DNA of 64,000 nt from a virus. The first letter of the stretch is position 1, and each line of letters opens with the position of its first letter. The notes below the pieces were generated by a model. That model did no database searches and had not been told where the DNA came from. It saw only the letters and a list, made by a program, of their open reading frames with translations. This document shows positions 1,010-63,836 of the stretch, piece after piece. The stretch lies in IMG/VR virus record IMGVR_UViG_3300020201_000010. The stretch is one strand, 5' to 3'. The position numbers and the translations under genes are program-made.

Positions 1010-1429
1010 ATGAAATTTATTATAATACATACTCAACATGCAAAAATTTTCACGATTAATAATTGCAAAGCAAGTAAAAATATAAAAAATATAATTTTAA
1101 TTGTAGAAAGTATTTTTAGCAATGATATAATCGATATTCAGCATTTAAATATCAAAAATCTTTCAGATCCATATTTTCCTTACAATGATTCTTCAGATGA
1201 TGTATCATCATTATATTTTACTTACAATTGTTTTTCAGATTATTTAGCGTGCGTCAATATAACATTGGATATTTTAAAACTTTTTAATAATAAAATATAT
1301 AATGAGTTTTATCTTAAAAAGAAAGAATATTTTGAAAAAAAATTTATTTCCAAGAAAGAATTTTCCTTGCTGTGCAGCACTCTTGAAGAAACAAAAAAAC
1401 AATTTATTATTAGAGAGATTATAGAGTAA
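1010..1429 (+). CDS. Hypothetical protein, IIE-tail family (IIREIIE*)
   Basis: ORF track; C-terminal motif. Confidence 0.75.
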   Translation: MKFIIIHTQHAKIFTINNCKASKNIKNIILIVESIFSNDIIDIQHLNIKNLSDPYFPYNDSSDDVSSLYFTYNCFSDYLACVNITLDILKLFNNKIYNEFYLKKKEYFEKKFISKKEFSLLCSTLEETKKQFIIREIIE

Positions 1430-1430
1430 T

Positions 1431-1811
1431 ATGAATATTGGATATAAAGAATTTATATGGAAAGCAAACATTTTAGGTTCTAAACACAACACCTTGGATT
1501 TAAGTTTTATAAAAAAAGATTTGTTAATACAAAAAAGTTCAAGTTTTGTCAAAACAAATCTAGATCACGCGTATTTATCCAAAATGTTTCGTGAAGTGTT
1601 TCATGGAGCAACACTCATTTCTATACTTGATGTTAATAATATTTGTGCCCCCAAAGGTTTTTATCAACTCTTAAGTTCAAGCGATATGTTTTGTAAGAAA
1701 AACATATCAAAAGAGCTTTATTTGGAAATGCAATATTTACAACCAGAAGAATTTAAAAATACATTTGAAACATTTCATAATAACGCTCTAATAGAATATG
1801 TTATAAAATGA
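1431..1811 (+). CDS. Hypothetical protein (weak tail LIEYVIK*)
   Basis: ORF track; ATGA overlap with next gene. Confidence 0.7.
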   Translation: MNIGYKEFIWKANILGSKHNTLDLSFIKKDLLIQKSSSFVKTNLDHAYLSKMFREVFHGATLISILDVNNICAPKGFYQLLSSSDMFCKKNISKELYLEMQYLQPEEFKNTFETFHNNALIEYVIK

Positions 1812-2155
1812 ATTACTATGAAGTTACATATATTGATCAGGAACTTTGGCCTAACAAAAATATACTATACACTACACTTAATGATAGCGAAATATTTAAT
1901 CTATTGAGTTGTTTTTTAAGTTTAAGTGATTTAAAAATGATTTGTATTAGAGAAGTTTCTCATCAAGAGACCGAATATAGAATAATCAATAGTTTACTAG
2001 AGTTTTTAGATATATACAATGCTATACCTTCAAAAATTTTACCATATATTAATGAAAAAATATACCGTGAAATTTTAGGTTGCCCTCAAAATTTTATGCA
2101 TTATGATTTACCTAAAACGTTTGAAGAGTTTATAATTAAGAATATTATAGAATAA
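1808..2155 (+). CDS. Hypothetical protein, IIE-tail family (IIKNIIE*)
   Basis: ORF track; C-terminal motif. Confidence 0.75.
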   Translation: MNYYEVTYIDQELWPNKNILYTTLNDSEIFNLLSCFLSLSDLKMICIREVSHQETEYRIINSLLEFLDIYNAIPSKILPYINEKIYREILGCPQNFMHYDLPKTFEEFIIKNIIE

Positions 2156-2213
2156 ATGTAAAATAAACATTACATAAACCGTAAAATAATTATTATAAAG
2201 AAAATATAAATTA

Positions 2214-2594
2214 ATGTATTATAAAGTTACGCCATTAAATGGCTCTAAAATTGTATTCTTAAGTGACTTATTAATAGATGATTTTTCTGATTGGTTATCA
2301 AATGTTTTAAGAACATTTGAGGGCTATACACTATTAAAATTTCAAGAAATTAAATACGAAGAATATTATAATTTAACAGGTCAAGGCGTAGAGTTCTATG
2401 ACTCTCTACAAGATATATCAGAGTGGGGATTTCTTGAAGAGGAATGTATTGATTTGGTTTGTAAATATTTAACCCAAGATATATATACTGATATGAACAA
2501 ATCATTGGATGGTCAAGATCATTCTTTTAGTTATCTTCCTGAGACATTAGATGAATTTTTAAAATATAGAATGATTAAAAATATTATAACGTAA
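2214..2594 (+). CDS. Hypothetical protein, IIE-tail family (MIKNIIT*)
   Basis: ORF track; C-terminal motif. Confidence 0.75.
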   Translation: MYYKVTPLNGSKIVFLSDLLIDDFSDWLSNVLRTFEGYTLLKFQEIKYEEYYNLTGQGVEFYDSLQDISEWGFLEEECIDLVCKYLTQDIYTDMNKSLDGQDHSFSYLPETLDEFLKYRMIKNIIT

Positions 2595-2603
2595 AGGAAC
2601 ACC

Positions 2604-3703: not shown

Positions 3704-4978
3704 ATGATCAAGTTAACTTTAAAACAAATCAATAGTAGAGATAAAATAATACAACAAAACTTAACATGTATTAAAGAGGCGCCAATTCAAATAGAAGGAG
3801 TTCAAACAAAATGTTTATGGCAATGTAATGTTTGTTCTCACAAGTTTGAATGTAGGCTTGGAGATATTGATGGTTGTAAAAATTGTAAATTCAATAATGG
3901 TAACTTAGATTGTTTCACAAATCTTGTACAAAATAGCCAGTGGCCTATAAATTTTACAAATTTTTTTAAAATTAAAAAAATTACCGAAGCTCTTGAAGCA
4001 ACGCTATTAACAGAACAAATAAATTATTTTGGATCTAATAATGATGTAAAAATACAATGTAAAAATAAACATATAACTACCATTAAAGCTTATAGAATTT
4101 TGGCTGGTTCCTGGTGCGCAAGCTGTCCTAGACCAAAAAATTTAAGCGAAAGTATTTGCAGAGTTTATTTTAAAACTTTATTTAACGCAGATTTTATATC
4201 ACTTAAACCTGATTGGCTCAGAGACCCGTTAAGTGGTAATAAATTGGAGCTTGATGGATATTGTTATGATTTAAGTTTAGCTTTTGAACACCAGGGTGAA
4301 CAACATTATAAAGACAATGTTTTTAATGATCAAAATATGTTAAATATAATACAGGAAAGGGATAAATTTAAAGTAAAACAGTGTAAAAAACTAGGAATAA
4401 AATTATTTATAATACCGAATTTAATTAAAATGACGACGTTAAAAAAATTACCAGAATTAATAAAAAAACAAGCAATTAATCTTGGTGCAAATATAGATGG
4501 TATTGATTTTGATCAAAAAATAGATTATTCTTTGGTGTATGACTATGAGGCTAAGCACAAATTTAAAAAACAACAAATTAACAATGATATAATAAATACA
4601 ATTAATAAACATAACGGTAAGTGTTTATCTAAATATCAAACTATAAATAAAATGAAGTGGCAATGTTCCTTAGGACATGTATTTGAAAAGATGTTTTGTG
4701 AAATTAAAAATGGTTTTTGGTGTCCAAAATGTGCTCTAATCCAAAGCGGACAAAGCAGATCTGAAGCTGCTATTAAAAAAGCCAAGCCATCTTTTAAAAA
4801 GTTTTTAAAAGATAAAAAAACAAAATGCCTATCTGCATTTTGCTGTAAAGAAAAATTGATTTGGGAATGCGAATTTGGCCACAGATGGCAACAACATTTT
4901 CGATCTGTGAAAAAATCTAAACATTCAGGTTGCCCAACATGCGCCGGAAAATTACATAGTTTAAATATTATTAAATAA
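3704..4978 (+). CDS. Putative homing endonuclease: zinc-ribbon repeats plus PD-(D/E)xK/Vsr-like nuclease domain
   Basis: Repeated W-x-C-x-x-GH...CPxC units; PDWL...LELDGY...AFEHQGEQHY...RDKFK motif. Confidence 0.75.
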   Translation: MIKLTLKQINSRDKIIQQNLTCIKEAPIQIEGVQTKCLWQCNVCSHKFECRLGDIDGCKNCKFNNGNLDCFTNLVQNSQWPINFTNFFKIKKITEALEATLLTEQINYFGSNNDVKIQCKNKHITTIKAYRILAGSWCASCPRPKNLSESICRVYFKTLFNADFISLKPDWLRDPLSGNKLELDGYCYDLSLAFEHQGEQHYKDNVFNDQNMLNIIQERDKFKVKQCKKLGIKLFIIPNLIKMTTLKKLPELIKKQAINLGANIDGIDFDQKIDYSLVYDYEAKHKFKKQQINNDIINTINKHNGKCLSKYQTINKMKWQCSLGHVFEKMFCEIKNGFWCPKCALIQSGQSRSEAAIKKAKPSFKKFLKDKKTKCLSAFCCKEKLIWECEFGHRWQQHFRSVKKSKHSGCPTCAGKLHSLNIIK

Positions 4979-5058: not shown

Positions 5059-5334
5059 ATGATAAATGATAGTGGGTTAGAAAACAATATTAATTTTATT
5101 AATATTGTTTTACAATTAAATTGTGGCGCAGATTATAATGAAGAAAGGCTTATTCATTATGTTTTAAATTTAAATAATGATGACATGAAAGAAATATCGC
5201 CAGAGAATTGTTCTGATTGGGCTTTTATTATAAATAGAAATGATAATTATCAAGTATATAAAAAAGAATTAATGAAACACCCTATTTGGAAAGATGCTTT
5301 CGATGAGTTAATGATTAAAAACATCATAGAGTGA
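5059..5334 (+). CDS. Hypothetical protein, IIE-tail family (MIKNIIE*)
   Basis: ORF track; frame open upstream to 4975 without ATG. Confidence 0.7.
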   Translation: MINDSGLENNINFINIVLQLNCGADYNEERLIHYVLNLNNDDMKEISPENCSDWAFIINRNDNYQVYKKELMKHPIWKDAFDELMIKNIIE

Positions 5335-6156: not shown

Positions 6157-7578
6157 ATGAGAGTTGATACGAGTGGCATAATTAGGACATCCTCTAAAAC
6201 CAGAGTTGTTAGGCATGCCGAAAAATTCTTAAAAAAAGCTAAAGATAAATTTAATAATAGATATGATTATAGCAGTACTATTTACAAAGGAATACATACA
6301 AAAATAGAAATCATCTGCAAACTTCATGGTTCATACTGGCAGACGCCAATTTCCCATTTAGCAAGTCATGTTGGATGCCCCGATTGTGTAAGCATAAGGT
6401 ATAAGGAAGCCAAGCGTAAATCAATTGACCAGTTTTTATTAGAATGCAAAAATCTTCACGGTGATAAATATGATTATTCTAATGTTGCGTATATTAATCA
6501 AAATACGCAGGTAAAAATCACATGTCATATTCACGGTGAGTTTATGCAAACTCCAAATTGTCACTTAATCACAACTGGATGCCCCCAATGTGGCAGAAAG
6601 AAAAGAGACCAAGGATTAAGGCATACTAAAGAGCGTATTATAGAAGACATAAAAAAAATATATGGAGATCAATATATTTATGACGGTATTATTTATGCTA
6701 ATAATAATATGCCAATTGAAATTGTTTGCAAGCAGCATGGTAAATTTTCCAAATACCCTAGTGCATTAAAAAATGGTTATGGGTGTCCAGGATGCAGCCC
6801 AGTAAATAAATGGACAACAAAATCTATTGTACAAAGATTTATAGAAATTCATGGTAATAAATATAATTATTCAAAAGTAATATATAATGGTACGTGGTCT
6901 CATGTTGAGATAATTTGTTCGGTAAAAGAACACGGGTCTTTTAATCAGATTGTTGATAAGCATTTAGCTGGTAAAGGGTGTGCTGCCTGTGCAGGAAATA
7001 AAAAGCATACTAATAATTCTATTATAAAAGCATTTATTGATACTCACGGTGATAAGTATGATTATTCAAAAGTCAAGTATATAGGAGCCAACATAAAGGT
7101 TGAAATAATTTGTAAAAAAAATAATCACGGATCTTTTTTCCAAGGACCAATGCCACATAAATCTGGTGTTGGTTGCCCTCGATGCTCAACATCAGTTTCA
7201 AATAAAGAAATAGCTTGGTTAGATAGTTTAAATGTGCCGAATGAATTTAGACATGATAAAAATAAAAAAATATATTTATCAAAACCAAATTTATTAAATA
7301 ATAATTTTATAAAACCAGATGCGCTTGATTTAGCAAATAAAATAGTATATGAATTTGATGGAGATTTTCATCACGGAAATCCTTTATTATATAAAGCAGA
7401 AGATATAAATCCATTAAATAAAAAAACTTACGGTGAACTATATAATAGATTATTAAACAAGAATAAGATATTAAAAGATATGGGTTATACCGTTATACGC
7501 ATTTGGGAAAAAGATTATGATGAAAGTTTACGTATGGAAAAATTAGAAAAACAAAATAAGGAGAATGATAATGCTTGA
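6157..7578 (+). CDS. Putative homing endonuclease: YDYS/CxxHG..CPxC repeats plus Vsr/DUF559-like nuclease
   Basis: Five YDYS..Y....I.C..HG.F.Q....H....GCP.C units; C-terminal PDAL...EFDGDFHHG...GYTVIRIWE. Confidence 0.8.
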   Translation: MRVDTSGIIRTSSKTRVVRHAEKFLKKAKDKFNNRYDYSSTIYKGIHTKIEIICKLHGSYWQTPISHLASHVGCPDCVSIRYKEAKRKSIDQFLLECKNLHGDKYDYSNVAYINQNTQVKITCHIHGEFMQTPNCHLITTGCPQCGRKKRDQGLRHTKERIIEDIKKIYGDQYIYDGIIYANNNMPIEIVCKQHGKFSKYPSALKNGYGCPGCSPVNKWTTKSIVQRFIEIHGNKYNYSKVIYNGTWSHVEIICSVKEHGSFNQIVDKHLAGKGCAACAGNKKHTNNSIIKAFIDTHGDKYDYSKVKYIGANIKVEIICKKNNHGSFFQGPMPHKSGVGCPRCSTSVSNKEIAWLDSLNVPNEFRHDKNKKIYLSKPNLLNNNFIKPDALDLANKIVYEFDGDFHHGNPLLYKAEDINPLNKKTYGELYNRLLNKNKILKDMGYTVIRIWEKDYDESLRMEKLEKQNKENDNA

Positions 7579-10429: not shown

Positions 10430-10672
10430 ATGGGTTATGTTGTTCACTATCCGCATAATATTTATATTTGTAAATTTAATAAAAGAACAAAAAATTTTAT
10501 AATAGATTGTTGTTTGGAAAACGCAAGTATATTTTTACAAAAAAATTATTTTATAAAATTCATAAATAGTACCAATGAATGGGGTTCTGGAGGTTGGGAA
10601 GAATATGTTAAAATTTTTAAATGTGAAATTATATCTTATAATGAAGCTATTATAAAGAATGTAGTAGAATGA
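10430..10672 (+). CDS. Hypothetical protein, IIE-tail family (IIKNVVE*)
   Basis: ORF track; C-terminal motif. Confidence 0.7.
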   Translation: MGYVVHYPHNIYICKFNKRTKNFIIDCCLENASIFLQKNYFIKFINSTNEWGSGGWEEYVKIFKCEIISYNEAIIKNVVE

Positions 10673-11095: not shown

Positions 11096-11407
11096 ATGAA
11101 TGATGATTTATATTTATTTTCAAATGAAATAGTGGAGCCTGGAGAGTATCTTCTAATTTATGATAGCGGTCATTCAAATTTAATTAATATTGTTTGGTAT
11201 AAAAATGTGCTTATGCAAAAGGTAACCAAATCAGAGTGCGATATTATTTATGTTGAGAACGCGGAAGATGATCATGAAGATTATAAATATGATTTCTATC
11301 CAAACTTTGATTATGAAGTTTTGTTTTTCGGACCAATTCATAAAGTCAAACATTCTAAATTAGAATTTATTAAAAATAATGTTACTGTGCACAACATAAT
11401 AACATGA
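11096..11407 (+). CDS. Hypothetical protein, IIE-tail family (TVHNIIT*)
   Basis: ORF track; EPGEY and FFGPI shared with paralogs. Confidence 0.7.
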   Translation: MNDDLYLFSNEIVEPGEYLLIYDSGHSNLINIVWYKNVLMQKVTKSECDIIYVENAEDDHEDYKYDFYPNFDYEVLFFGPIHKVKHSKLEFIKNNVTVHNIIT

Positions 11408-11496: not shown

Positions 11497-11781
11497 ATGG
11501 AATGCTTATCAAATATGGAAGTTAAAAAATGCGGCCTGTATCATATGCTATATAGCAGTAGTGACTCTTATGATCTACATAAAATTCAACATCAAGGAAT
11601 GTGTGTTGTATATGGTTTGATTCAAGAACTTGTGGTACACAGTGCTAATTGGTCTTCAGTCAAGTCAATTAAAACTATGAATCATACTTTTTTTATTGGT
11701 CCCATAATTGATGATAATCAAATAGAGAAAGCATTTGAAAGGAAGAAAAATTTAGATATGATGAAAGATATTATAGAATGA
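11497..11781 (+). CDS. Hypothetical protein, IIE-tail family (MMKDIIE*)
   Basis: ORF track; FFIGPI; ATGA overlap with GT2. Confidence 0.75.
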   Translation: MECLSNMEVKKCGLYHMLYSSSDSYDLHKIQHQGMCVVYGLIQELVVHSANWSSVKSIKTMNHTFFIGPIIDDNQIEKAFERKKNLDMMKDIIE

Positions 11782-12638: not shown

Positions 12639-13010
12639 ATGAAAAAAAATAAAATAAAACTTAAACCTTTCAGATCAAGTTTTTATTCTCTTAAAACATT
12701 AATATATGATATAGAGTATAATACATTATCTTCACGCATATATAGCATGTATAATATATTACAATGTGCTTATTGCCCTGTAATTCATTATACTAATATT
12801 AATAATGAATTTGAACAAGGAAACATTGGCGGCGCACCTTTTTATGATAAATCATCTTTTGTAAAACAATTAAATCAATGTTTTGAAGAGGGTTTCGAGG
12901 TATATTTGAATGAGCAAGTAGGCCATGATACTTTATTACACAATAAAGATATAATTAAACTTAAAGATTTAAGAAGCAAACAAAAAATAATTAAAGATAT
13001 TATAGAATGA
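12639..13010 (+). CDS. Hypothetical protein, IIE-tail family (IIKDIIE*)
   Basis: ORF track; C-terminal motif. Confidence 0.75.
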   Translation: MKKNKIKLKPFRSSFYSLKTLIYDIEYNTLSSRIYSMYNILQCAYCPVIHYTNINNEFEQGNIGGAPFYDKSSFVKQLNQCFEEGFEVYLNEQVGHDTLLHNKDIIKLKDLRSKQKIIKDIIE

Positions 13011-13276
13011 TATCTGATAATTTTATTTACCCTGAAGATGTAATTAATCCTGGATACTATATTTTTTACAACTTAAAGACGCATATGAAGCTTTCTTATA
13101 TAAAGTATGTTTCAAATTATTTTGGTAAAGGACTTTGCACAGACGATTTAAATACTTTTTATTTGAATAAAGATTATAAAGGATATATTTTATATCAAAT
13201 TGAATTACCATCTATAACAAAAGAAGTTGAAGATTATTTTAATAACAATGAATTAATTAAAAAAATAATAGAATGA
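13007..13276 (+). CDS. Hypothetical protein, IIE-tail family (LIKKIIE*)
   Basis: ORF track; NPGYY shared with 11096. Confidence 0.75.
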   Translation: MISDNFIYPEDVINPGYYIFYNLKTHMKLSYIKYVSNYFGKGLCTDDLNTFYLNKDYKGYILYQIELPSITKEVEDYFNNNELIKKIIE

Positions 13277-20507: not shown

Positions 20508-20515
20508 TAATAATA

Positions 20516-25566: not shown

Positions 25567-26576
25567 CAGAAAATATTTTACTTACCGGCTGCACATCATT
25601 CCTTGGTGCAGCAATTATAGATTGTCTTGTAAAAGATGGGTATAATATATTTGGGTCCAATATTGTAAATTATTCAATTGAAAATAAACATATAATGTTT
25701 ATCATTCCAAACTCTAATGATTGCGATTGTTTAAATTTTGATAAATTAAATAATTATATAAATGAATTTAAAATCACAAAAATATTTCATGCAGCAGCTC
25801 GTTGTGGTGGAATTGGTTTAAATCAAAAAACTCCAGCAGACTTGACAGTTGAAAATATTCAAATGGGTATTAATGTATATATGGCTGCAAAATTAAATAA
25901 TATTGAATACGTATACACTCTAGGTAGCGTTTGTGCTTACCCTCAATTTTGCGATATACCATTTAAAGAGTCAGATTTGTGGAATGGAATGCCGGAAATA
26001 ACTAATGCTGGGTATGGTCACGCTAAGCGAACTTTACTTATGCTTGGCAATACTTACAGGTCACAATACGGCATTAAAGGTGGACAGTTAATACCAATTA
26101 ATATGTATGGTTTACAGGACCATTACGATTTAGAAAATTCGCATGTGATACCAGCTCTTATAAGAAAAATATATGAAGCGAAATTAAATAAAGACAAAGA
26201 TGTTACGTGTTGGGGTAGCGGCAAAGCATACAGAAGTTTTTTAAATAGTCATGATTGCGCTCAAGCTATAGTTAAAACATGTTTGTTAAATTTAGATTTT
26301 GAGCAACCAATTAATTTAGGACCAACTGATGATATATCTATTAAAGATTTATCTTTGTTAATATCTAAATTAATAAATTATAATGGAAATATTGTTTTTG
26401 ATCCATCAAAACCTGATGGACAATTAAGAAGATTGTTAGATACGTCTAGAGCTAAAGATATTTTGGATTGGCAAGCACAAATAAAATTCGAGAAAGGCTT
26501 AAACGATACCATTAAATGGTACATAGCTAATAGGGAATTATTAATAAATAATGAGTCAAAAAAAATACGAAGATAA
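25551..26576 (+). CDS. fcl: GDP-L-fucose synthase
   Basis: AAARCGGIG, LGSVCAYP, YGHAKR, NMYG, SHVIPALI, KPDG. Confidence 0.92.
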   Translation: MEQCMTENILLTGCTSFLGAAIIDCLVKDGYNIFGSNIVNYSIENKHIMFIIPNSNDCDCLNFDKLNNYINEFKITKIFHAAARCGGIGLNQKTPADLTVENIQMGINVYMAAKLNNIEYVYTLGSVCAYPQFCDIPFKESDLWNGMPEITNAGYGHAKRTLLMLGNTYRSQYGIKGGQLIPINMYGLQDHYDLENSHVIPALIRKIYEAKLNKDKDVTCWGSGKAYRSFLNSHDCAQAIVKTCLLNLDFEQPINLGPTDDISIKDLSLLISKLINYNGNIVFDPSKPDGQLRRLLDTSRAKDILDWQAQIKFEKGLNDTIKWYIANRELLINNESKKIRR

Positions 26577-27093
26577 TTATAATTATAAATATACGTTACA
26601 TTATATGTATAACAATGCAGCGCATAATAACAACGAAAACTATCACGTATGCAAACAAATTATTCATACTTATAACAGTATAAACATTGATGATTTATCT
26701 AAATTTACATTTTCATTAAGTCTTAATGGAGACGGAATGAAGAACTGGTCGTTTCATGATATTTACCATATAGAAAGTAACTTAGATGTTCTAATGGATA
26801 AAATATACAACGATCATTGTGCTGAAAATAAAAGTTACCCAGTAATTGAGTTTTGTAAGTATGAAGAATCTTTATATGAATTATCACTGAAATTTGCAAA
26901 AAAACATCATATTTTAAACTATTGTAGCGATGACATGTATCAAGAACTTTATAATGAAACAAATGAATTTACTTGTTTAAATGGAAATGTTTCATGGCTT
27001 GACTCAGGATTTGAATTAGCCACAATGATAGCAAGCTCGCCAACAATAAGTATATTTAAAAATAACATTATGATAAAAAACATTATTCAATAA
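26551..27093 (+). CDS. Hypothetical protein, IIE-tail family (MIKNIIQ*)
   Basis: ORF track; C-terminal motif. Confidence 0.75.
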   Translation: MSQKKYEDNYNYKYTLHYMYNNAAHNNNENYHVCKQIIHTYNSINIDDLSKFTFSLSLNGDGMKNWSFHDIYHIESNLDVLMDKIYNDHCAENKSYPVIEFCKYEESLYELSLKFAKKHHILNYCSDDMYQELYNETNEFTCLNGNVSWLDSGFELATMIASSPTISIFKNNIMIKNIIQ

Positions 27094-29851: not shown

Positions 29852-30217
29852 ATGAATATTAAATGTTTTTATAATGCGGGAGACGATAGTGATTTTTCGC
29901 TCATTAAACATGCACCATATTTTGCATTCCATTCCGAATGTTTAGTTGGTGTCGATTATAATAAATTAATTATAAAAAATTCTTATATTAAACGTTATTG
30001 CGTTGATGAGGAAATGAAACGCTCTATCTTTTTCATTGGTCCATTAACATCAGATCATATAGTTTATTTTAATCAAAAATACGGATTAAATATTTCTATT
30101 GATCATACAAGCTTTTCATTTATCAATAATTCAAATTTAATTAACCAAGACCCCGAAATAGTTGCTGAAGTTAAAAAATACTTTTATAATAAAACAATAA
30201 AGAATATAATAGAATGA
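29852..30217 (+). CDS. Hypothetical protein, IIE-tail family (TIKNIIE*)
   Basis: Probable start ATG 29852; FFIGPL shared with 11497. Confidence 0.7.
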   Translation: MNIKCFYNAGDDSDFSLIKHAPYFAFHSECLVGVDYNKLIIKNSYIKRYCVDEEMKRSIFFIGPLTSDHIVYFNQKYGLNISIDHTSFSFINNSNLINQDPEIVAEVKKYFYNKTIKNIIE

Positions 30218-30807
30218 AATTTAAATTATTTATAATCATATCATTAATTTTAATTCCATTAACGACTCGCGGAGATCAGTCATTAATACAAACCTTTCTG
30301 ATTCGCTCTAACTATCTCAACTCAGGTAATGTTGCCAAAGCAAATAATTATCGGATTCATGAATATACCTCAATTCGCAATACAACGTTTATGGGCAAAA
30401 ATATTATGCTTCATGAGAAAGTTATTGGGCCATTAAAGTGCGTTGAGAAAAAAATTAAAGCAACCTGCTCCGATAACTATACACCTAAAGTTCTTTCTGG
30501 TTGGAGACCTAATAATACAATTCAAGGAGCAGAGATCTCAAATCATGTATTCGGAATAGCTATTGATATTGACCCGTCCATTAATACTTGTTGCGGCTGT
30601 GTTAAAGATTGGGCAAAAGCCGAAGGATGTAAAAATGCTGTGAAACCAGATGACGGCTCTGCTCCACTAGGAACTTATGAAATACCTCGGTGCTGGATTG
30701 ATTCTTTTAATGAGTATGGTTGGTACTGGCTAGGTGATGAGCCAACATTAAGGGATACAATGCATTTTGAATTCTTAGCAAAACCAGTGGATGTTAGTTG
30801 TGATTAA
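30214..30807 (+). CDS. Secreted M15-family peptidoglycan peptidase with signal peptide
   Basis: SNHVFGIAIDI, WYWLG, DTMHFE; hydrophobic N-terminus. Confidence 0.85.
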   Translation: MKFKLFIIISLILIPLTTRGDQSLIQTFLIRSNYLNSGNVAKANNYRIHEYTSIRNTTFMGKNIMLHEKVIGPLKCVEKKIKATCSDNYTPKVLSGWRPNNTIQGAEISNHVFGIAIDIDPSINTCCGCVKDWAKAEGCKNAVKPDDGSAPLGTYEIPRCWIDSFNEYGWYWLGDEPTLRDTMHFEFLAKPVDVSCD

Positions 30808-31249
30808 TATATTCTATTTTGGAGCTTATCATAAATCTAACCAAGGTATGACTGGTAGTAAAAAAATTATAATCGATGTTATATCAGATATTGATGTGGA
30901 AAAACTTGGTATATTTTTAGCTAAATACGAGTATTCTTCTAATTATAACTTTACTTTAAGTAAAGTTCATGGCCCATACGAAATAGAAAATTTTTCCAGA
31001 TATGAAATAGAAAATTTTTCCAGATATGAAATAGAAAATTTTTCCAGATCTCTGCCATCCAACGTTTTAAATCATCTTGGTGTTAAATGGTTGGAAAACG
31101 CACATACGATTGATTCTATAGATCAAGAAATTTTTGATGAAATCAAACTGTGTATTATGTACCCTACAAGTTTCACAACTATGTTTAGAAGCTGTGATAC
31201 TTTCAGTGAATATAAAAATATGATTATGATTAAAGATATCATAGAATGA
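30791..31249 (+). CDS. Hypothetical protein, IIE-tail family (MIKDIIE*), with an internal 8-aa repeat
   Basis: ORF track; YEIENFSR x3. Confidence 0.7.
   Translation: MLVVINIFYFGAYHKSNQGMTGSKKIIIDVISDIDVEKLGIFLAKYEYSSNYNFTLSKVHGPYEIENFSRYEIENFSRYEIENFSRSLPSNVLNHLGVKWLENAHTIDSIDQEIFDEIKLCIMYPTSFTTMFRSCDTFSEYKNMIMIKDIIE
30977..31048. repeat. Tandem repeat, 24 bp x3, in frame
   Basis: TAYGAAATAGAAAATTTTTCCAGA x3. Confidence 0.95.
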
Positions 31250-31608
31250 AAAAATATCGTTTTCCTATTAAAGATGAGTTTGGTGTTATTATCAATTCAT
31301 TCTATGTCAATAGCAAAGTGCAAAGAAAACATATTGCTAAAATGTTAGATTCATTAAGTTATCTCAATTTTTGTGATAACTTTGACAGAAGCGGCAATAA
31401 AGTTACATATAATTTATTGGATGTAATGCACTATTTCATATTGTTCGAATATTTGAAGTATGAACATATAAATGAAGATATGTATAAAGAAGGAAAGATG
31501 TTACTTGGAATGTTCTCTAGTAATTTAAAAACAGTTAACCAATTTTTCCAATTCGATTCTTTAAGTGAAGCTAAAATGTATTTTCCAATAAAACAAATTA
31601 TCGAGTGA
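31246..31608 (+). CDS. Hypothetical protein, IIE-tail family (PIKQIIE*)
   Basis: ORF track; C-terminal motif. Confidence 0.75.
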   Translation: MKKYRFPIKDEFGVIINSFYVNSKVQRKHIAKMLDSLSYLNFCDNFDRSGNKVTYNLLDVMHYFILFEYLKYEHINEDMYKEGKMLLGMFSSNLKTVNQFFQFDSLSEAKMYFPIKQIIE

Positions 31609-31617: not shown

Positions 31618-31788
31618 ATGAGTACTAAAATTACAAGAGACGGTAAAGAATTGTTGCCACGAAAGAAAATAGCTTCAAAGAATGAAAAACTTGATGCCGT
31701 TTCTAATAAAGATATTGATTTGGCTCTCTCTGAATTTGGAGAAGAACCCGATGAAGAATGTGATGGAGAAGATTATTTAGATTATTAA
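31618..31788 (+). CDS. Small protein with an acidic tail, 56 aa (not in track)
   Basis: MSTKITRDGKELLPRKKIASK...FGEEPDEECDGEDYLDY*; stop overlaps the next ATG. Confidence 0.6.
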   Translation: MSTKITRDGKELLPRKKIASKNEKLDAVSNKDIDLALSEFGEEPDEECDGEDYLDY

Positions 31789-32069
31789 TGACTATAAAAA
31801 GAATCAAATCAAATGGTCAAAATATTGAAGTTAAAACTAAAAAAATAGATTACAAACTTCATAACTTTTTATCTTTCTTAGATGAAGATGTTTTAAAAAT
31901 TTTTATTATAAAAAGCGAAGATAAATACGCTATATCATTTATTGATAATCTTCTTTCAGCTGCAAATAATTTAAATAATTCCTCTGAACAAAATAAAGAA
32001 ATTGATGCCGCTAAAAAAATACTTAATAATAGAAAAAATCAAATTATAATTAAACAAATTATAGAATAA
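31788..32069 (+). CDS. Hypothetical protein, IIE-tail family (IIKQIIE*)
   Basis: ORF track; C-terminal motif. Confidence 0.75.
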   Translation: MTIKRIKSNGQNIEVKTKKIDYKLHNFLSFLDEDVLKIFIIKSEDKYAISFIDNLLSAANNLNNSSEQNKEIDAAKKILNNRKNQIIIKQIIE

Positions 32070-47496: not shown

Positions 47497-47521
47497 CTAC
47501 TACTAAACGACTAAGGACCTA

Positions 47522-47725
47522 ATGACGGATCTTGAAAACATAAACTGGAAAATGCAAAAAATTATTGAGCAAAATGAAAGAGTGATTTCGCAGAATGACG
47601 CGATGATGGATTTGTTATCGAATTACATAAAAGCGACAGGCGACGATTTAAGAGCTTTATCAAAACGGATTGATTTGTTAGAAGATGCGCCTTTACGAAT
47701 AATGAATGGTGGCGGTGGGCATTGA
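47522..47725 (+). CDS. Small coiled-coil protein
   Basis: ORF track; AAGGA RBS. Confidence 0.65.
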   Translation: MTDLENINWKMQKIIEQNERVISQNDAMMDLLSNYIKATGDDLRALSKRIDLLEDAPLRIMNGGGGH

Positions 47726-48054: not shown

Positions 48055-48326
48055 TCGATTTTCTTGCTATGATTTTCTCTATAGAAACGCTGATGTTCGT
48101 ACTTACCATTCAAATTTTGGTTTATACTATTCGTGGCTCTCTAGAATTTTTATTTCCGAAACTAATAAATGATGTGCGGCTTAAAAAGTTTTGGAAATTA
48201 TTTGTCTTAAAGTCTTTGCCGAGCTTGATCGCTTTGACTTTTGGGTTTTTCGGGCAGATACAAATCGCCCAGAGCAACCTGTACGGCTACAGCTCAGTAT
48301 GTATTTTGTGTTCGCGAGCTGACTAA
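48051..48326 (+). CDS. Holin-like membrane protein, possibly 3'-truncated or chimeric
   Basis: Two hydrophobic segments; composition shifts at about 48250. Confidence 0.45.
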   Translation: MIDFLAMIFSIETLMFVLTIQILVYTIRGSLEFLFPKLINDVRLKKFWKLFVLKSLPSLIALTFGFFGQIQIAQSNLYGYSSVCILCSRAD

Positions 48327-48376
48327 TCAGGAAATGGTTGATACTCACAACTGGTTTGTGGCGAATCCATAATAGT

Positions 48377-48421
48377 TAAAATAATAACCTTAGTAAAATA
48401 ATAACCTTAGTAAAATAATAA
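48377..48421. repeat. Tandem repeat, 17 bp x2.6 (TAAAATAATAACCTTAG)
   Basis: Directly upstream of the tail spike gene. Confidence 0.9.
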
Positions 48422-48438
48422 TAAGAAGGTATATAAAT

Positions 48439-54920: not shown

Positions 54921-54939
54921 CACCACGAGGTAACCGCAA

Positions 54940-55161
54940 ATGACCGAAAGGAACGAAATGACCGAAATAACCGAAATAACCGAAATAACCGAAATGCAGC
55001 AAGAGCTAAAGGAAGCATCGAAAGCTGCGCGCGCTCGGGCCCGTGCCGATGCGCTGGAGGATGCCGAACTGATTGAGAGCATCCGTGAGCGAAAAGAGGC
55101 TGGTGTGTTCGAGCGGATACACCTTGCGCGTACCGCACTCGAAGGCGTGACGATCACGTGA
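54940..55161 (+). CDS. Small helical protein with a 9-bp repeat (TEI)n
   Basis: GAGG RBS; ACCGAAATA x3 plus variants at about 54943-54996. Confidence 0.55.
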   Translation: MTERNEMTEITEITEITEMQQELKEASKAARARARADALEDAELIESIRERKEAGVFERIHLARTALEGVTIT

Positions 55162-55326
55162 ACAAATTCATTTATTTCCGAGATTTTACCAGGTCTGTAG
55201 CCGTCTTGAACTACTTAAGTTACATTTCTAAGATTGCTTATCGTTGCTAACGCAACTAACGATCAGATTCAAGGAGTACATAATTGGTTTGTTTCTAAAT
55301 ACTAATCAATAAATTAAATAAAGGAA

Positions 55327-56031
55327 ATGATTATGTCTTTAAATTTTGAAATATTTAAAAATAAACTATCAGAAAGTCATAAGTTAAATATTAAATATAA
55401 AGATACATCTTTATTTATGAAAATATTTAGTTATTTATTATTTTTCAATAAAGATTTTATGACTAACTATGTTACAACAATAGGTTCAACAGTATATTTT
55501 CCTTCAAAACATTTTGTTGATAATAACCAAGCAGAATCTATCCAAACATTAGCTCATGAATTCATTCATGTTAATGATAATAAGAAATATTCCATATTTT
55601 ATAAACCAGCATATTTATTTCCACAATGTTTGGCATTATTATCATTGCTAACATTTTTTGCTTTTATGACAAGCTATGCTTTTTTGTTTTTATTATTTTT
55701 AATATTTTTATTACCGATACCATCATATACCAGAACGCATCTTGAGCTACGTGGTTATCAAATGACTTTATATATTCGTTATCTTTATTTAAAACATTTA
55801 AATATTGACGAAGATTCAATCAAGTTAAATTTAAATAAAAATATTGAAATAATATCAGAACGTTATTTCAAAGGATCAGCATATTATTTCATGTGGCCAA
55901 AAGGTGTAAAAGAAGAATTATCAGATTTTGCACATAAAATAATGTCAGGCAATGTTCCTGGTAGAAACAATATATATTTAATAATTACAGATGCTTTTAA
56001 TTTATGTAAATTAAAATCCAAGATACCATAA
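55327..56031 (+). CDS. Membrane protein with an HExxH zinc-peptidase-like motif
   Basis: LAHEFIH, downstream hydrophobic segment, ELRGY. Confidence 0.65.
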   Translation: MIMSLNFEIFKNKLSESHKLNIKYKDTSLFMKIFSYLLFFNKDFMTNYVTTIGSTVYFPSKHFVDNNQAESIQTLAHEFIHVNDNKKYSIFYKPAYLFPQCLALLSLLTFFAFMTSYAFLFLLFLIFLLPIPSYTRTHLELRGYQMTLYIRYLYLKHLNIDEDSIKLNLNKNIEIISERYFKGSAYYFMWPKGVKEELSDFAHKIMSGNVPGRNNIYLIITDAFNLCKLKSKIP

Positions 56032-61383: not shown

Positions 61384-61384
61384 A

Positions 61385-62011
61385 TTAAACTTTCTTTCGT
61401 GATCTTTCTTTTCTTTCAGTCATCCATTGACCAACAGTTAAACCTGAAGGTAAAATTGCCGTATGTTCTGGTACAACAAAAAAGACAGCAGAGTATTGCC
61501 AATCATCGGAAGCCACTACTTCATGTTTGGTTGCTGCTGCTCCATTAATTTCTGTGACCAACTCTCCTAAATGTATTCCTGGATAGTATTCTCGAACTCT
61601 TTGCAGTAAAGGATCATTTTCTCCATCAAGATATTTAAATGTATCTAATGTATTTCTATACATACTTATAGTAAATAAATCAAAGTCAACATGAGGAGCT
61701 GTTGTAGCTCCTGGTTGATATTGAAGAATACGTAATGTTGAATCTGGCCCAGGATAGAATTCTTCTGGTAAGTTGAGCATGTATGAAGCACATAAAGCTT
61801 CATTCTTTGCCATTTCATAAAGAGCTATAATATCTGGAATTTGATCTTCAATGCTAGCAAAGTATTTTGGTGCTATGTGTGCGTAACGTTTAAGATCATC
61901 CCAGATATTATCACCATTAGGACTTTCAATTACAGAAGGCTTAAAACCTGTATTAAATGAGGAGAATGCAAATGACGAGAGCGTGTTGTATTGTTCTTGA
62001 GTAAATGTCAT
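61385..62011 (-). CDS. 2-oxoglutarate/Fe(II) dioxygenase, IPNS-like fold
   Basis: LRILQY...PHVDFDLFT (HxD), GE, TKHEV (distal His), YSAVFF. Confidence 0.8.
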   Translation of the reverse strand: MTFTQEQYNTLSSFAFSSFNTGFKPSVIESPNGDNIWDDLKRYAHIAPKYFASIEDQIPDIIALYEMAKNEALCASYMLNLPEEFYPGPDSTLRILQYQPGATTAPHVDFDLFTISMYRNTLDTFKYLDGENDPLLQRVREYYPGIHLGELVTEINGAAATKHEVVASDDWQYSAVFFVVPEHTAILPSGLTVGQWMTERKERSRKKV

Positions 62012-62049
62012 AATTTTCTTATTGATAAAATAGCTATTGCTTAATATTA

Positions 62050-62913
62050 TTACACTGCTACTGGAACTTTAATGCTTGGTCCGGGATTATAATCTATAAT
62101 ATTAAAATCATCTAAAGTATATGAGAATATATCTTTAGCTTTATTTAAAATTAATTTTGGGCTGTCAGGAATAATATTATTTGTGGCAGTAATATATTGC
62201 TTAACCGCTTGGTCTTGATTTAAATATATATGCGCATTATGAATATTATGTATTAGTTTGTAAGGAGTTAATTCACATTGTTGAGCAAGCATGTAGGTTA
62301 GTGCTGAGTAGAAAAAAATATTAGCTGAAATTCCTGGAAGCCAATCACCACTACGTTGTGTTAAAATCCCAGTTAATCTTTTCTTACTATCAACATTTAA
62401 ATAAAAATTGAAATGGCAAGGAGGTAATTTAACCCTATCACTACACACATCTTTAGCATTCCATAAATCCATCATTATTCTTCTGGATATTGGGTTGCCT
62501 CTAAGCTCATCTACTATAAATTGCACTTGGTCAAAACCACCAGGATCAGAATTGCGTAAAGAATAGTCTCCACCTTGATGACGCATTTGCCAACCATATA
62601 TTGGGCCTAGCTCACCATCAGCATAACCATTTCGTGTTTCAAATTCTTTATCACGCCAGGCTGTCCAAATTTTAGAACCCATAGCCTCAAGATCATTTAT
62701 ATTTGTTGATCCGGAAAGCATCCACAGAAGTTCGGAGAAAATTGATTTGTAAGCATATTTTCTAACTGTAGGTAGTGGAAAATGTTCGCTGATATCATAA
62801 GTACACTGAACACCTGTTAATGACCTACAGACGATACCTGTACGAGTCTGATTATCATCGCCATATTTATATATTTTCTTTAATGTTTTATCGTAATCTT
62901 TTAGTATGTACAT
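62050..62913 (-). CDS. thyA: Thymidylate synthase
   Basis: ELLW.L.G, GPIYG.Q.R, SRR, LPPCH, QRS.D, AN, AHIY. Confidence 0.92.
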   Translation of the reverse strand: MYILKDYDKTLKKIYKYGDDNQTRTGIVCRSLTGVQCTYDISEHFPLPTVRKYAYKSIFSELLWMLSGSTNINDLEAMGSKIWTAWRDKEFETRNGYADGELGPIYGWQMRHQGGDYSLRNSDPGGFDQVQFIVDELRGNPISRRIMMDLWNAKDVCSDRVKLPPCHFNFYLNVDSKKRLTGILTQRSGDWLPGISANIFFYSALTYMLAQQCELTPYKLIHNIHNAHIYLNQDQAVKQYITATNNIIPDSPKLILNKAKDIFSYTLDDFNIIDYNPGPSIKVPVAV

Positions 62914-62931
62914 ATTATTTACTCCAATATT

Positions 62932-63507
62932 TTAAAAGTCCATGAAATCGCGTTTGGTTGCTAGCGTCACAAGGCGTACACCAGCGGCTATAATAGCGTC
63001 TCGGCCGCCTTCCTGACGATCAACGAGCGCAATGATACCAGCCACTTCGCAGCCGGCATCCTGCAACACTTTGAGAGCTTTAAGGCTTGAGCCACCAGTC
63101 GTTATGACATCTTCAAGCAACGCGACTCGGAGCCCAGGACGCAGGGCTTTGTCGCCTTCGATGCGCTTGGCTGAGCCATGATCTTTAAGCTCTTTGCGAA
63201 CGTAAATGGCAGGGATGGGTGCGCCTCGCTGGAAGCTGATTAGTGAAACTGCTGAAGCCAGCGGGCAACCGCCAAGTTCAACGCCGCACACTGCTTCAAT
63301 TTCACCAAGTTCCACTAGGGCATCGAATATTAGCTCACCAACCAGAGAGTGGCCCTCTGCGGTGAGGATCGTTTGCTTGCAGTCGATGAAGAAGTCACTT
63401 TCACTACCTGATACTAGAGTAACTTTCTTTTTTTCGAAGCTGAGCTGGCTCAGTAGTTCGACGAGACGTGCGCGCTTTTGTTCCATGGCTATTGTTGTTA
63501 GCATCAC
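62932..63507 (-). CDS. pyrE: Orotate phosphoribosyltransferase (GC-rich)
   Basis: VTL.SG..SDFFIDCK, GVELGG, VRKE.KDHG, LEDVITTGGS, LVDR.EGG. Confidence 0.93.
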   Translation of the reverse strand: MMLTTIAMEQKRARLVELLSQLSFEKKKVTLVSGSESDFFIDCKQTILTAEGHSLVGELIFDALVELGEIEAVCGVELGGCPLASAVSLISFQRGAPIPAIYVRKELKDHGSAKRIEGDKALRPGLRVALLEDVITTGGSSLKALKVLQDAGCEVAGIIALVDRQEGGRDAIIAAGVRLVTLATKRDFMDF

Positions 63508-63836
63508 TCTATAATCTCCTGTATCATTAATTGTTCTCGAAAATTAGTTGCTTTGATTTTATCAAGTTGGTTTATGAAATCTTGACATGTATATTTTTTA
63601 TTTAAACTATAAATCGTATTATCATCTGTTGGGCAGAATATAATACCTATATGCTCAAGCCCTGTGATGCAATCAAAAAGAAAGTCTCCAATTGGGTTAT
63701 ATGACCAGTAAATCCATTTATGTTTCTCAAAACTATAATTTTTCAGATCAAATAGATATTCGTGTATCATACTTTCTAATATATCTATGTCATAATTGCA
63801 ATCGTGGCTTAAGGTTCCTATATTAAATTTGGTCAC
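63504..63836 (-). CDS. Hypothetical protein, IIE-tail family (MIQEIIE*)
   Basis: ORF track; GTGA overlap with pyrE. Confidence 0.75.
   Translation of the reverse strand: MTKFNIGTLSHDCNYDIDILESMIHEYLFDLKNYSFEKHKWIYWSYNPIGDFLFDCITGLEHIGIIFCPTDDNTIYSLNKKYTCQDFINQLDKIKATNFREQLMIQEIIE

What the first reader, a model, noticed from the sequence alone, without database searches (positions are those of the whole stretch)
1010..63836. A shared C-terminal tag (x-I-K-[N/D/E/Q]-I-I-E-COOH) on 15 otherwise unannotatable small proteins
Fifteen 80-180 aa ORFs end in nearly the same heptapeptide right before the stop: IIREIIE (1429), IIKNIIE (2155), MIKNIIT (2594), MIKNIIE (5334), IIKNVVE (10672), TVHNIIT (11407), MMKDIIE (11781), IIKDIIE (13010), LIKKIIE (13276), MIKNIIQ (27093), TIKNIIE (30217), MIKDIIE (31249), PIKQIIE (31608), IIKQIIE (32069) and MIQEIIE (63504, minus strand). 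Weaker matches end at 726 and 1811. Seen directly: codons vary synonymously (ATT/ATC/ATA, AAA/AAG, AAT/AAC, GAA/GAG, TAA/TGA), so selection looks protein-level; the bodies are mostly dissimilar; none of the recognisable enzymes carries the tail; the genes sit singly or in short runs between core genes on both strands. Inference: many unrelated cargoes share one terminal docking motif for a single hub. Candidates are a capsid-packaging or ejection signal (a C-terminal analogue of the T4 internal-protein targeting sequence; I-x-E also matches T4 prohead protease specificity), a PDZ/TPR-type adaptor, a degron, or a sorting signal for a phage compartment or filament. I do not recognise this as a described system.
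Basis: partly seen in the sequence, partly recalled or inferred. Interest (0 to 1): 0.92.

Follow-up and report, generated by a model that had tools for sequence, protein, structure and literature searches.

The report
Shared C-terminal helix tag in huge phages
About one gene in six of this uncultured large phage, and about 100 genes in each of its 435-459 kb relatives, ends in the same short helix (...I-I-K-N-I-I-E), which sits on unrelated protein folds and matches no family in the libraries searched, so it looks like a common handle whose reader is still unknown.

Summary
All 15 ORFs end as stated. In the window, 16 of 18 six-frame matches to the loose heptapeptide are followed directly by a stop (P = 4e-17), and the codons vary synonymously.

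The heptapeptide is the core of a roughly 13-residue N-capped amphipathic helix, L-[ST]-x-[DE]-E-h-h-I-[KR]-x-I-I-E-COOH.

The tail marks a clade of uncultured, tubulin-encoding huge phages that are syntenic with the window. It ends 10-22% of their predicted genes, about 100 per 435-459 kb genome.

- One body type, a small His/Cys3 zinc domain, gives 921 protein clusters in 1.84 billion proteins.
- It matches no Pfam, PHROG or PDB entry. No cultured phage matched the one member searched, and no paper holds three tail strings.
- It is absent from 185,579 prokaryote genomes.
- It sits on at least two unrelated folds (the zinc beta domain and a DUF4116 alpha-solenoid) and on dozens of orphan bodies.
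- Tagged genes turn over fast: 0 of 14 in the window have homologues in relatives, against 44 of 73 untagged genes.

My best reading is a portable docking handle for one unidentified partner, at 0.45. The links to the T4 protease, to PDZ domains and to a co-evolving "dialect" were not supported.

This scan has noted other shared tails in other phages, but not this one.

The parts
1010..1429 (+). tagged ORF, 139 aa, ends IIREIIE
1808..2155 (+). tagged ORF, 115 aa, ends T-F-E-E-F-IIKNIIE (capping box plus tail)
   Evidence: The identical protein is on 8 metagenome contigs.
2214..2594 (+). tagged ORF, 126 aa, ends MIKNIIT
5059..5334 (+). tagged ORF, 91 aa, ends MIKNIIE. It lies between syntenic core genes.
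10430..10672 (+). tagged ORF, 80 aa, ends IIKNVVE
11096..11407 (+). tagged ORF, 103 aa, ends TVHNIIT (the most degenerate tail)
11497..11781 (+). tagged ORF, 94 aa, ends MMKDIIE. Its stop overlaps the next start (ATGA).
12639..13010 (+). tagged ORF, 123 aa, ends IIKDIIE
13007..13276 (+). tagged ORF, 89 aa, ends LIKKIIE
26551..27093 (+). tagged ORF, 180 aa, ends MIKNIIQ. No Pfam family.
29852..30217 (+). tagged ORF, 121 aa from ATG 29852, ends TIKNIIE
30791..31249 (+). tagged ORF, 152 aa, ends MIKDIIE. It holds an internal triple repeat. No Pfam family.
31246..31608 (+). tagged ORF, 120 aa, ends PIKQIIE
31788..32069 (+). tagged ORF, 93 aa, ends IIKQIIE. It lies directly upstream of the tubulin gene.
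63504..63836 (-). tagged ORF, 110 aa, ends MIQEIIE
262..726 (+). weak tail (ICDIIA); membership doubtful
1431..1811 (+). weak tail (IEYVIK); membership doubtful
63833..63892 (-). start-less 19-codon remnant ending IIREIIE plus a stop. It overlaps the end of the upstream gene in another frame and is probably the relic of a lost tagged gene.

Best explanation
SHOWN
- The heptapeptide is the conserved core of a C-terminal helix of about 13 residues: L-[ST]-x-[DE]-E-h-h-I-[KR]-x-I-I-E-COOH. It has an S/T-x-x-E capping box at its start and the protein stops right after the last Glu.
- It is a module kept by purifying selection on the protein.
- It ends 10-22% of the predicted genes in a clade of uncultured, tubulin-encoding huge phages to which the window's phage belongs.
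- It sits on unrelated bodies: a zinc-binding beta domain of about 70 aa, DUF4116 alpha-solenoids, and dozens of orphan bodies, including all 15 in the window.
- The genes that carry it are small and lie in gene-dense, non-structural regions between conserved core genes. They are replaced so fast that related phages share none of them detectably.

INFERRED
- The helix is a common interaction handle. One shared partner, phage- or host-encoded, grips these otherwise diverse and probably host-directed accessory proteins by an Ile-rich face (positions -7, -6, -3, -2), a basic residue at -5 and the terminal Glu/carboxylate.
- The variable bodies supply the individual specificities. The logic is that of a constant docking motif on variable heads.
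- The partner and the process it serves (turnover, delivery, co-assembly or loading) are not identified.
For: - Terminal restriction. Window: 16 of 18 matches are terminal. G002: 92 of 101. The reversed-pattern control gave 0 hits against 78, 27, 15, 11 and 5 forward hits.
- Protein-level selection: all synonymous codons are used.
- Clade membership: the window is collinear with G002 at 35-50% aa identity, and its core genes are shared with G001, G002 and G004.
- Scale: 74 of 740, 88 of 681, 25 of 220, 18 of 83 and 14 of 87 predicted genes are tagged. There are 921 clusters of the zinc type among 1.84 billion proteins, and nearly all matches end at the last residue. At least 119 metagenome loci hold 467 tagged ORFs.
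- Two folds: AF2 gives six strands plus a terminal helix (pLDDT 87.6) against an all-alpha solenoid (pLDDT 94.8). In the solenoid the last block of residues (191-198), which holds the tail, drops to pLDDT 67, as if it projected past the packed repeats. DUF4116 matches at 1e-12 to 1e-28.
- Body diversity: the G002 bodies fall into 60 BLAST clusters.
- What is conserved: the tail is far better conserved than the bodies, including the polar K (137 of 150) and E (135 of 150) and the exact stop position.
- Turnover: 0 of 14 tagged against 44 of 73 untagged window genes have homologues in relatives (Fisher P = 1.4e-5).
Against: - No binding partner was found or tested.
- In the commonest body (326 of 467 metagenome members have a Cys just before the tail) the helix is an integral part of the fold. 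It starts at a zinc ligand and is modelled with pLDDT about 90, so its Ile face may simply be the hydrophobic core.
- Most expansion is within genomes, so common descent with extreme divergence could explain many of the 'unrelated' bodies.
- The genome-specific variants of the tail follow G+C content and give no sign of a co-evolving reader.
- The one complex prediction gave no verdict.
Confidence: 0.45

Rival explanations
1. Ordinary structural helix of one hyper-divergent family. The tail is the ancestral C-terminal helix of a small zinc-ribbon-like domain. It nucleates or caps the fold. Lineage-specific expansion and fast divergence erased the rest, so no common reader exists.
For: - The zinc type dominates: 70% of metagenome members, and 50 of 77 tagged genes in G001.
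- The helix begins at the invariant Cys ligand and is confidently packed.
- Most tagged genes have their nearest relative in the same genome.
- Several window tails keep the capping box with 0 or 4 inserted residues, as expected of a helix.
- A ~35-copy zinc-ribbon expansion is known in Bacillus phage G (PMC7824862).
Against: - The tail also ends DUF4116 alpha-solenoids, a Pfam family defined independently of these phages and with a wholly different fold.
- Surface-type residues (K, E) and the exact stop are conserved as strongly as the hydrophobic ones. The zinc ligands themselves are dispensable: none of the window's 15 proteins fits the zinc type.
- The profile of the zinc type finds window proteins only weakly (best E = 0.0015, 13 bits).
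Confidence: 0.27
2. Degron or protease-adaptor tether (a special case of the handle). The tail is read by a Clp-type or other AAA+ machine, either to clear early proteins on schedule or to tether variable adaptors that deliver host targets.
For: - G001, G002 and G003 each encode a full-length cellular-type ClpP (PF00574, 1e-54 to 1e-61; 3e-43 to solved ClpPs) in a neighbourhood with no recognised head gene.
- An extreme C-terminal position with a free carboxylate is typical of ssrA-type degrons and of the SspB tail that tethers to ClpX (PMC9963277).
- MoxR-like AAA+ genes sit directly next to tagged genes in three genomes.
Against: - No ClpX-like unfoldase was found. The phage AAA+ proteins show no [GA][YFW][VILA]G pore-loop match, and only one of four shows any [ILVM]-G-[FLM] match.
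- The sequence resembles no known degron.
- The adjacency could be chance, because 10-13% of genes are tagged and they cluster.
- ClpP could not be checked in the window's own phage.
Confidence: 0.12
3. Capsid-loading or ejection signal (a special case of the handle). The tail docks small anti-host proteins to the inside of the prohead for co-injection, as a C-terminal analogue of the T4 capsid targeting sequence.
For: - Precedents for short terminal peptides that load diverse cargo into HK97-fold shells: the T4 CTS (PMC3012670, PMC7697877), encapsulin cargo-loading peptides (PMC8229669), and the HK97 protease (Duda 2013, seen only as a reference).
- Giant phage heads hold tens of ejection proteins (PMC7411985).
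- Tagged proteins are small and fast-evolving, as arms-race cargo would be.
Against: - Tagged genes lie in gene-dense regions beside nucleotide-metabolism, sugar and replication genes and are absent from the large-gene blocks.
- No Peptidase_S77 or S78 was found.
- No flexible linker precedes the tail.
- About 100 different cargo species per genome would be unprecedented.
- Expression timing is unknown; the simple promoter k-mer scan found nothing.
Confidence: 0.08
4. Composition or DNA-level artefact. The motif reflects AT-driven Ile/Lys/Asn richness, or a conserved DNA signal (translational coupling, a recombination site) at gene ends.
For: - Tagged genes overlap the next start by ATGA in about 48% of cases, against 16-21% for other genes.
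- GAA is 92% of last codons in G002, so the final GAA-TGA partly doubles as a start for the next gene.
Against: - The motif is almost never internal, and the reversed pattern gave 0 hits.
- All synonymous codons are used at every position.
- Half of the tagged genes have no overlapping downstream start.
- The pattern gave only three chance hits (open frames of 11-33 codons) in 185,579 prokaryote genomes, many of them AT-rich.
Confidence: 0.02

Closest known systems
T4 capsid targeting sequence (CTS) of internal proteins IPI-III and Alt
   Same: A short conserved terminal peptide shared by otherwise unrelated, small, fast-evolving phage proteins in hyperplastic loci. One reader handles all of them.
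   Different: The CTS is N-terminal and is removed by the gp21 protease after L/I-x-E. Here the peptide is at the extreme C-terminus and nothing follows it. No S77 protease was found in relatives. The genes are not near recognised head genes.
Bacterial microcompartment encapsulation peptides and encapsulin cargo-loading peptides
   Same: Short portable terminal peptides (amphipathic helices in the microcompartment case) that sit on diverse cargo and are read by one shell or scaffold (PMC4594438, PMC11157265, PMC12339742, PMC8229669).
   Different: Those peptides are joined by a flexible linker, have other sequence patterns, and accompany shell genes. Here the helix follows the body directly through a capping box, is acidic, and no BMC shell gene is present. 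The number of carriers per genome (about 100) is far larger.
C-terminal degrons and adaptor tethers of AAA+ proteases (ssrA tag; SspB C-terminal ClpX-binding peptide)
   Same: Extreme C-terminal position. The phage relatives encode their own cellular-type ClpP.
   Different: The sequence is unlike LAA-type or SspB-type motifs, and it ends in Glu. No ClpX-like partner is encoded. Nothing was tested.
Lineage-specific expansions of small zinc-ribbon proteins in jumbo phages (Bacillus phage G, about 35 copies; PMC7824862) and constant-motif/variable-head multigene families of giant viruses (e.g. poxvirus ankyrin proteins with a C-terminal F-box-like motif; own knowledge)
   Same: Tens of paralogous small zinc-binding or repeat proteins per giant genome, with a conserved C-terminal element on variable bodies.
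   Different: One member searched found no match in GenBank phages. The conserved element here is only about 13 residues and also sits on non-homologous bodies.
Pfam DUF4116 repeat (PF13475)
   Same: 13 of the G002 tagged proteins are DUF4116 repeat proteins.
   Different: The Pfam repeat does not include the tail. No DUF4116 protein occurs in the window, G001, G003 or G004.

Membership tests
T4-type capsid targeting sequence | N-terminal position, about 10 residues | tested here: not met
   The motif is at the extreme C-terminus in all cases.
T4-type capsid targeting sequence | Removal by a gp21-type prohead protease (Peptidase_S77) after L/I-x-E | tested here: not met
   No PF03420 match in G001-G004 (the named control genomes do not hold this family either). 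No residues follow the Glu.
Encapsulin cargo-loading peptide / BMC encapsulation peptide | Terminal peptide joined by a flexible linker, with a shell gene in the same genome | tested here: not met
   No linker: a capping box directly follows the body. No BMC domain and no HK97-type capsid Pfam hit. Encapsulin shell not searched.
ssrA-type / SspB-type ClpX recognition peptides | C-terminal LAA-like or LRVVK-like sequence read by ClpX | tested here: not met
   The tail ends I-I-E. The phage AAA+ proteins show no pore-loop match, and one of four has a single [ILVM]-G-[FLM] match. Binding itself cannot be tested with these tools.
PDZ / tail-specific-protease ligands | Hydrophobic C-terminal residue, with a PDZ reader present | tested here: not met
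   The last residue is Glu in 135 of 150. No PDZ_2 or Peptidase_S41 in G001-G004. Host readers not testable.
His/Cys3 zinc beta-domain with IIKNIIE helix (new family, this report) | Invariant H...CxxC...C just before the tail | tested here: not met
   Met by 37 of 37 sequences in alignment A1 and by the relatives. None of the window's 15 proteins fits it, and the A1 profile finds them only weakly (best E = 0.0015).
IIKNIIE-tail module (new, this report) | C-terminal [ILMV]-I-[KR]-x-I-I-[EQ] directly before the stop, helix-forming, in a phage of the tubulin-encoding huge-phage clade | tested here: met
   15 window ORFs. Clade membership by synteny. Helix seen in two AF2 models of relatives; not modelled for window proteins.
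DUF4116 (PF13475) | Match to the Pfam repeat | tested here: not met
   G002 proteins only. The two window tagged proteins that were scanned have no family.
C1 / treble-clef zinc fingers | Structural match well above background | tested here: inconclusive
   Best VIA Z = 4.1 to PKC C1 domains, below the tool's background level. Foldseek E > 1.

The most novel reading that the evidence does not exclude
A clade of huge phages runs a proteome-scale address system. A 13-residue C-terminal helix marks about 100 fast-evolving effector proteins per genome for one dedicated reader. The system would sort, deliver or time these proteins as a group, making it a viral counterpart of the PTS1/KDEL type of terminal sorting signal and portable enough to be grafted onto captured domains such as DUF4116.
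Probability: 0.25. Interest if true: 0.9.

Novelty: new variant of a known kind. Interest (0 to 1): 0.74.

Why it matters
If one reader handles a tenth to a fifth of a huge phage's proteome through a 13-residue tag, that would be a new organising principle of phage infection. It would also give a direct way to pick out, by sequence alone, the accessory (probably host-directed) gene sets of a whole uncultured phage clade. The tag could serve as a portable handle for biotechnology.

Even on the tamer reading, this is a very large and easily recognised protein family or module: 921 clusters for one body type, matching nothing in Pfam or PHROGs. It deserves a family definition, and it explains a sizeable share of the 'dark' small ORFs in these genomes.

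Tried and rejected
- **Co-evolving 'dialect'.** Tails differ between genomes: KN in G003, G004 and the window; KD in G002; RE/KE in G001. Homologous zinc bodies carry their own genome's variant. However, the variants follow G+C content across 46 sources (Spearman 0.63 for D/E at -4 and 0.71 for R at -5). They are therefore explained by mutational drift at tolerant positions and are not evidence for a reader.
- **Complex prediction.** A DUF4116-tail protein was folded with a zinc-tail protein of G002 to test tail-to-tail association. Result: no verdict (score 0.00). This is not evidence either way.
- **Readers sought in G001-G004 and not found.** PDZ_2, Peptidase_S41, Peptidase_S77, Peptidase_S78, the BMC shell domain and the HK97 capsid Pfam.
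- **AAA_2 search.** It found only MoxR-like ATPases with no [GA][YFW][VILA]G pore-loop match; one of the four has a single [ILVM]-G-[FLM] match.
- **Promoter k-mer scan of upstream regions, to time expression.** Nothing usable.
- **Fold searches of the zinc-domain model.** No clear match.
- **ESM Atlas look-up of window 1808-2155.** Uninformative.
- **Homology searches.** Window 1808-2155 found only itself. Cultured phages gave no relative of the zinc type or close relative of the core genes.
- **Whole genome of the window.** Not held, so the tag count and the presence of ClpP in the window's own phage beyond 64 kb are unknown.

Full report
**1. The observation**

The window (28-33% G+C over most of its length) is a densely packed phage genome segment.
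- Genes recognised: tubulin/FtsZ-like GTPase (32077-33453), UvsW-like and DnaB-like helicases, ribonucleotide reductase, thymidylate synthase, many glycosyltransferases and sugar-nucleotide enzymes, and several homing endonucleases.
- In the six-frame translation, the loose heptapeptide occurs 18 times and 16 of these are followed at once by a stop codon, where stops make up 7% of codons (binomial P = 4.4e-17). One of the two exceptions lies out of frame within the gene at 36531. The other is the weak IVHEIIT inside the 689-aa gene.
- Ile, Lys, Asn/Asp and Glu are each written with several codons, both TAA and TGA are used, and the DNA behind the stop is unrelated.
- With the tail removed, the 17 bodies show no significant pairwise BLASTP similarity.
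- The ORF ending at 30217 is better started at ATG 29852.
- A start-less remnant ending IIREIIE plus a stop lies at 63833-63892 on the minus strand.

**2. Where the window comes from**
- The 115-aa protein of 1808-2155 is found, letter for letter, only on metagenome contigs of three JGI samples and three sequencing runs. The longest contig on record is 109 kb.
- Cultured phages hold no near relative.

**3. The tail is not private to this phage**
- A DNA pattern for I-K-N-I-I-E plus a stop, run against IMG/VR, gave mostly chance hits in short frames. It also gave a handful of large viral contigs with many hits each.
- Read out, these ORFs show a longer consensus. In the commonest type it is L-T-C-[DNE]-E-x-I-I-K-N-I-I-E-COOH, preceded by an invariant His and a CxxC.
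- A profile of 37 such proteins finds 921 clusters (50% identity representatives) among 1.84 billion proteins. They are 60-140 aa long, and nearly all matches run to the very last residue. In the best 150: Ile at -7, -6, -3 and -2 in 137-146; Lys at -5 in 137; Glu at -1 in 135; Cys at -11 in 149.
- Ten that were looked up are all metagenomic and unnamed.
- Pfam and PHROGs have no family for them, and PDB sequences give no significant match. One member searched by tblastn found nothing in GenBank phages, and no paper holds the three tail strings searched.
- A more specific 30-nt pattern (E-x-I-I-K-[ND]-I-I-E-stop) has only three hits in one genome each of 185,579 prokaryote species. All three lie in open frames of 11-33 codons.
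- The same pattern hits seven IMG/VR contigs, one of which is the window's own phage, and at least 119 metagenome stretches holding 467 tagged ORFs.

**4. Whole-genome view of relatives**

I fetched four records:

| Handle | Size | CheckV completeness | IMG/VR record |
|---|---|---|---|
| G001 | 458,729 bp | 100% | IMGVR_UViG_3300028920_000022 |
| G002 | 435,004 bp | 100% | IMGVR_UViG_3300027740_000003 |
| G003 | 131 kb | 31% | IMGVR_UViG_3300005577_000027 |
| G004 | 85 kb | 20% | IMGVR_UViG_3300005577_000030 |

- The strict pattern I-K-x-I-I-E-stop occurs 27, 78, 15 and 11 times in G001, G002, G003 and G004. The same pattern read backwards occurs 0 times.
- With a simple gene call, the numbers of predicted genes that end in the tail are:

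| Source | Tagged genes | Predicted genes |
|---|---|---|
| G001 | 74 | 740 |
| G002 | 88 | 681 |
| G003 | 25 | 220 |
| G004 | 18 | 83 |
| Window | 14 | 87 |

- My pattern misses variants such as C at -7.
- In G002, 92 of 101 strict heptamers in six frames are terminal.
- Tagged genes crowd into gene-dense regions and are absent from the blocks of large genes.
- These phages are relatives of the window's phage. Window genes from 2667 to 44390 are collinear with G002 239170-207110 at 35-50% amino-acid identity, and most core genes also have homologues in G001 and G004. Tubulin is present in G001, G002 and G004.
- The tagged genes are the fast-moving part. None of the window's 14 called tagged genes has a homologue at E <= 1e-5 in any relative, against 44 of 73 other genes (Fisher P = 1.4e-5). 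In the window they lie between genes whose G002 homologues follow one another closely.

**5. Anatomy of the tail**
- Across body types the consensus is L-[ST]-x-[DE]-E-h-h-I-[KR]-x-I-I-E. S/T-x-x-E is the classical helix N-capping box (established knowledge).
- A variant replaces it with a C-P-x-C knuckle directly before the heptapeptide.
- Several window proteins keep the box with either 0 or 4 residues (one helical turn) between it and the heptapeptide.
- AlphaFold2 on the zinc type gives six strands and one helix, residues 61-70 of 71, which is the tail (pLDDT 87.6).
- So the tail is a short, acidic, amphipathic helix with four Ile on one side.

**6. Is it one family or a portable module?**
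- The G002 bodies, with the tail removed, fall into 60 BLAST clusters, 49 of them singletons.
- One cluster of 13 proteins (69-439 aa) consists of DUF4116 repeats (Pfam 1e-12 to 1e-28).
- Its AlphaFold2 model is an all-alpha solenoid (pLDDT 94.8). The tail lies at the end of the last helix (180-197), and the last block of residues (191-198) falls to pLDDT 67.
- A zinc beta domain and an alpha-solenoid cannot be homologous, so the tail sits on at least two unrelated folds. DUF4116 proteins occur only in G002, which fits a lineage-specific fusion.
- On the other side, the zinc type is the majority (326 of 467 metagenome members). There the helix is anchored by a zinc ligand, and most paralogues have their nearest relative in the same genome. 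Much of the apparent diversity may thus be divergence from a few ancestors.
- None of the window's 15 proteins fits the zinc type, and the zinc-type profile finds them only weakly (best E = 0.0015, 13 bits).

**7. Tests of particular mechanisms**

(a) DNA-level causes
- Codon use in 78 G002 tails covers all synonyms.
- There is a real secondary effect. About 48% of tagged genes overlap the next start by ATGA, against 16-21% of other genes, and GAA makes up 92% of last codons in G002. The final GAA-TGA therefore often doubles as a start for the next gene. This cannot explain a 7-13-residue peptide, and half of the tagged genes have no such overlap.

(b) Co-evolving reader
- Tail variants look genome-specific, and homologous bodies carry their own genome's variant.
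- The variants track G+C: N to D/E at -4 and K to R at -5, with Spearman 0.63 and 0.71 over 46 sources. I reject this as evidence for a reader.

(c) T4-type protease
- No Peptidase_S77 or S78 was found in the relatives.

(d) PDZ or tail-specific protease
- None was found in the relatives.

(e) Microcompartment-type shell
- None was found.

(f) Proteolysis
- G001, G002 and G003 each encode a full-length cellular-type ClpP. Its neighbours are a DksA-like protein, an FtsK-like ATPase and unknowns rather than recognisable head genes.
- The only other AAA+ genes found are MoxR-like. None has a [GA][YFW][VILA]G pore-loop match and one of four has a single [ILVM]-G-[FLM] match. They sit directly beside tagged genes in three genomes, and two are followed by a ~490-aa gene.
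- These are leads, not evidence, because tagged genes are frequent and clustered.

(g) Tail-to-tail association
- One complex prediction gave no verdict.

(h) Import into a replication compartment
- This is unlikely. The replication, nucleotide and sugar enzymes lack the tail.

**8. Reading**

Shown:
- A protein-level conserved, strictly terminal helix.
- Presence on unrelated folds.
- Carried by 10-22% of predicted genes in the five sequences examined from this clade.
- Virus-only distribution.
- Rapid turnover of the carriers.
- No match in the libraries searched.

Inferred:
- The helix is a common handle read by one partner, with the variable bodies providing specificity (0.45).
- The structural-helix reading keeps 0.27.
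- Degron/adaptor tether (0.12) and capsid loading (0.08) are special cases of the handle with some circumstantial support each.
- A composition or DNA artefact is excluded for practical purposes (0.02).

**9. Comparison with what is known, and with this scan**
- In logic, the nearest known systems are the T4 capsid targeting sequence, microcompartment encapsulation peptides, encapsulin loading peptides and C-terminal degrons or tethers (papers). The defining features of each that could be tested were not met.
- The nearest genomic analogy is the zinc-ribbon expansion of Bacillus phage G (PMC7824862).
- Earlier notes of this scan describe other shared C-terminal tails on small phage proteins in other genomes. 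None concerns this peptide or this clade.

Noticed in passing
window 44000-56000 (ORFs 48439-53964 and 53961-54920): G+C jumps from about 30% to 41-55% inside and after the 1841-aa ORF. No Pfam family matches this ORF, and no Pfam or PHROG family matches the neighbouring 708- and 343-aa ORFs. The 1841-aa ORF and the next one have no homologue in G001-G004. They look like recently acquired fibre-type modules.
   Followed up: no
window 3704-4978, 6157-7578, 24412-25566, 28317-28883, 33514-34977, 36531-37691: Six homing-endonuclease-like genes (DUF4379/DUF723 zinc-module HNH type, two GIY-YIG, one LAGLIDADG) are scattered among core genes. Only some of them have a homologue in the relatives.
   Followed up: partly
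G002 410663-411280; G001 160353-161009; G003 73634-74302: The huge-phage relatives encode a full-length cellular-type ClpP (3e-43 to solved ClpPs). It sits beside a DksA-like and an FtsK-like gene, not beside recognisable head genes.
   Followed up: partly
G002 420921-422234; G001 130696-132036 and 146780-148084; G003 90894-92309: MoxR-like AAA+ ATPases, two of them followed by a ~490-aa gene, each have a tagged small gene directly upstream or around them.
   Followed up: partly
window 42896-43726 and 30214-30807: The phage encodes an M24 (methionine-aminopeptidase-type) peptidase, conserved in G001 and G002, and an M15 peptidase-domain protein.
   Followed up: no
window 30791-31249: This tagged protein contains a perfect threefold tandem repeat of eight residues (YEIENFSR) in its middle.
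   Followed up: no
L002 1-8340 (upstream of the window): Just upstream of the window, the same phage encodes a protein of more than 2224 aa and a 972-aa protein with a Dockerin_1 hit.
   Followed up: no
window 17048-26576 versus G001: The sugar-nucleotide/glycosyltransferase block is shared gene for gene with G001 (38-59% identity) but is largely missing from G002.
   Followed up: no
P0007, P0055, P0090, P0138: Rare members hold two zinc-domain-plus-tail units in one chain, or five extra residues after the tail. An internal tail is therefore tolerated now and then.
   Followed up: no
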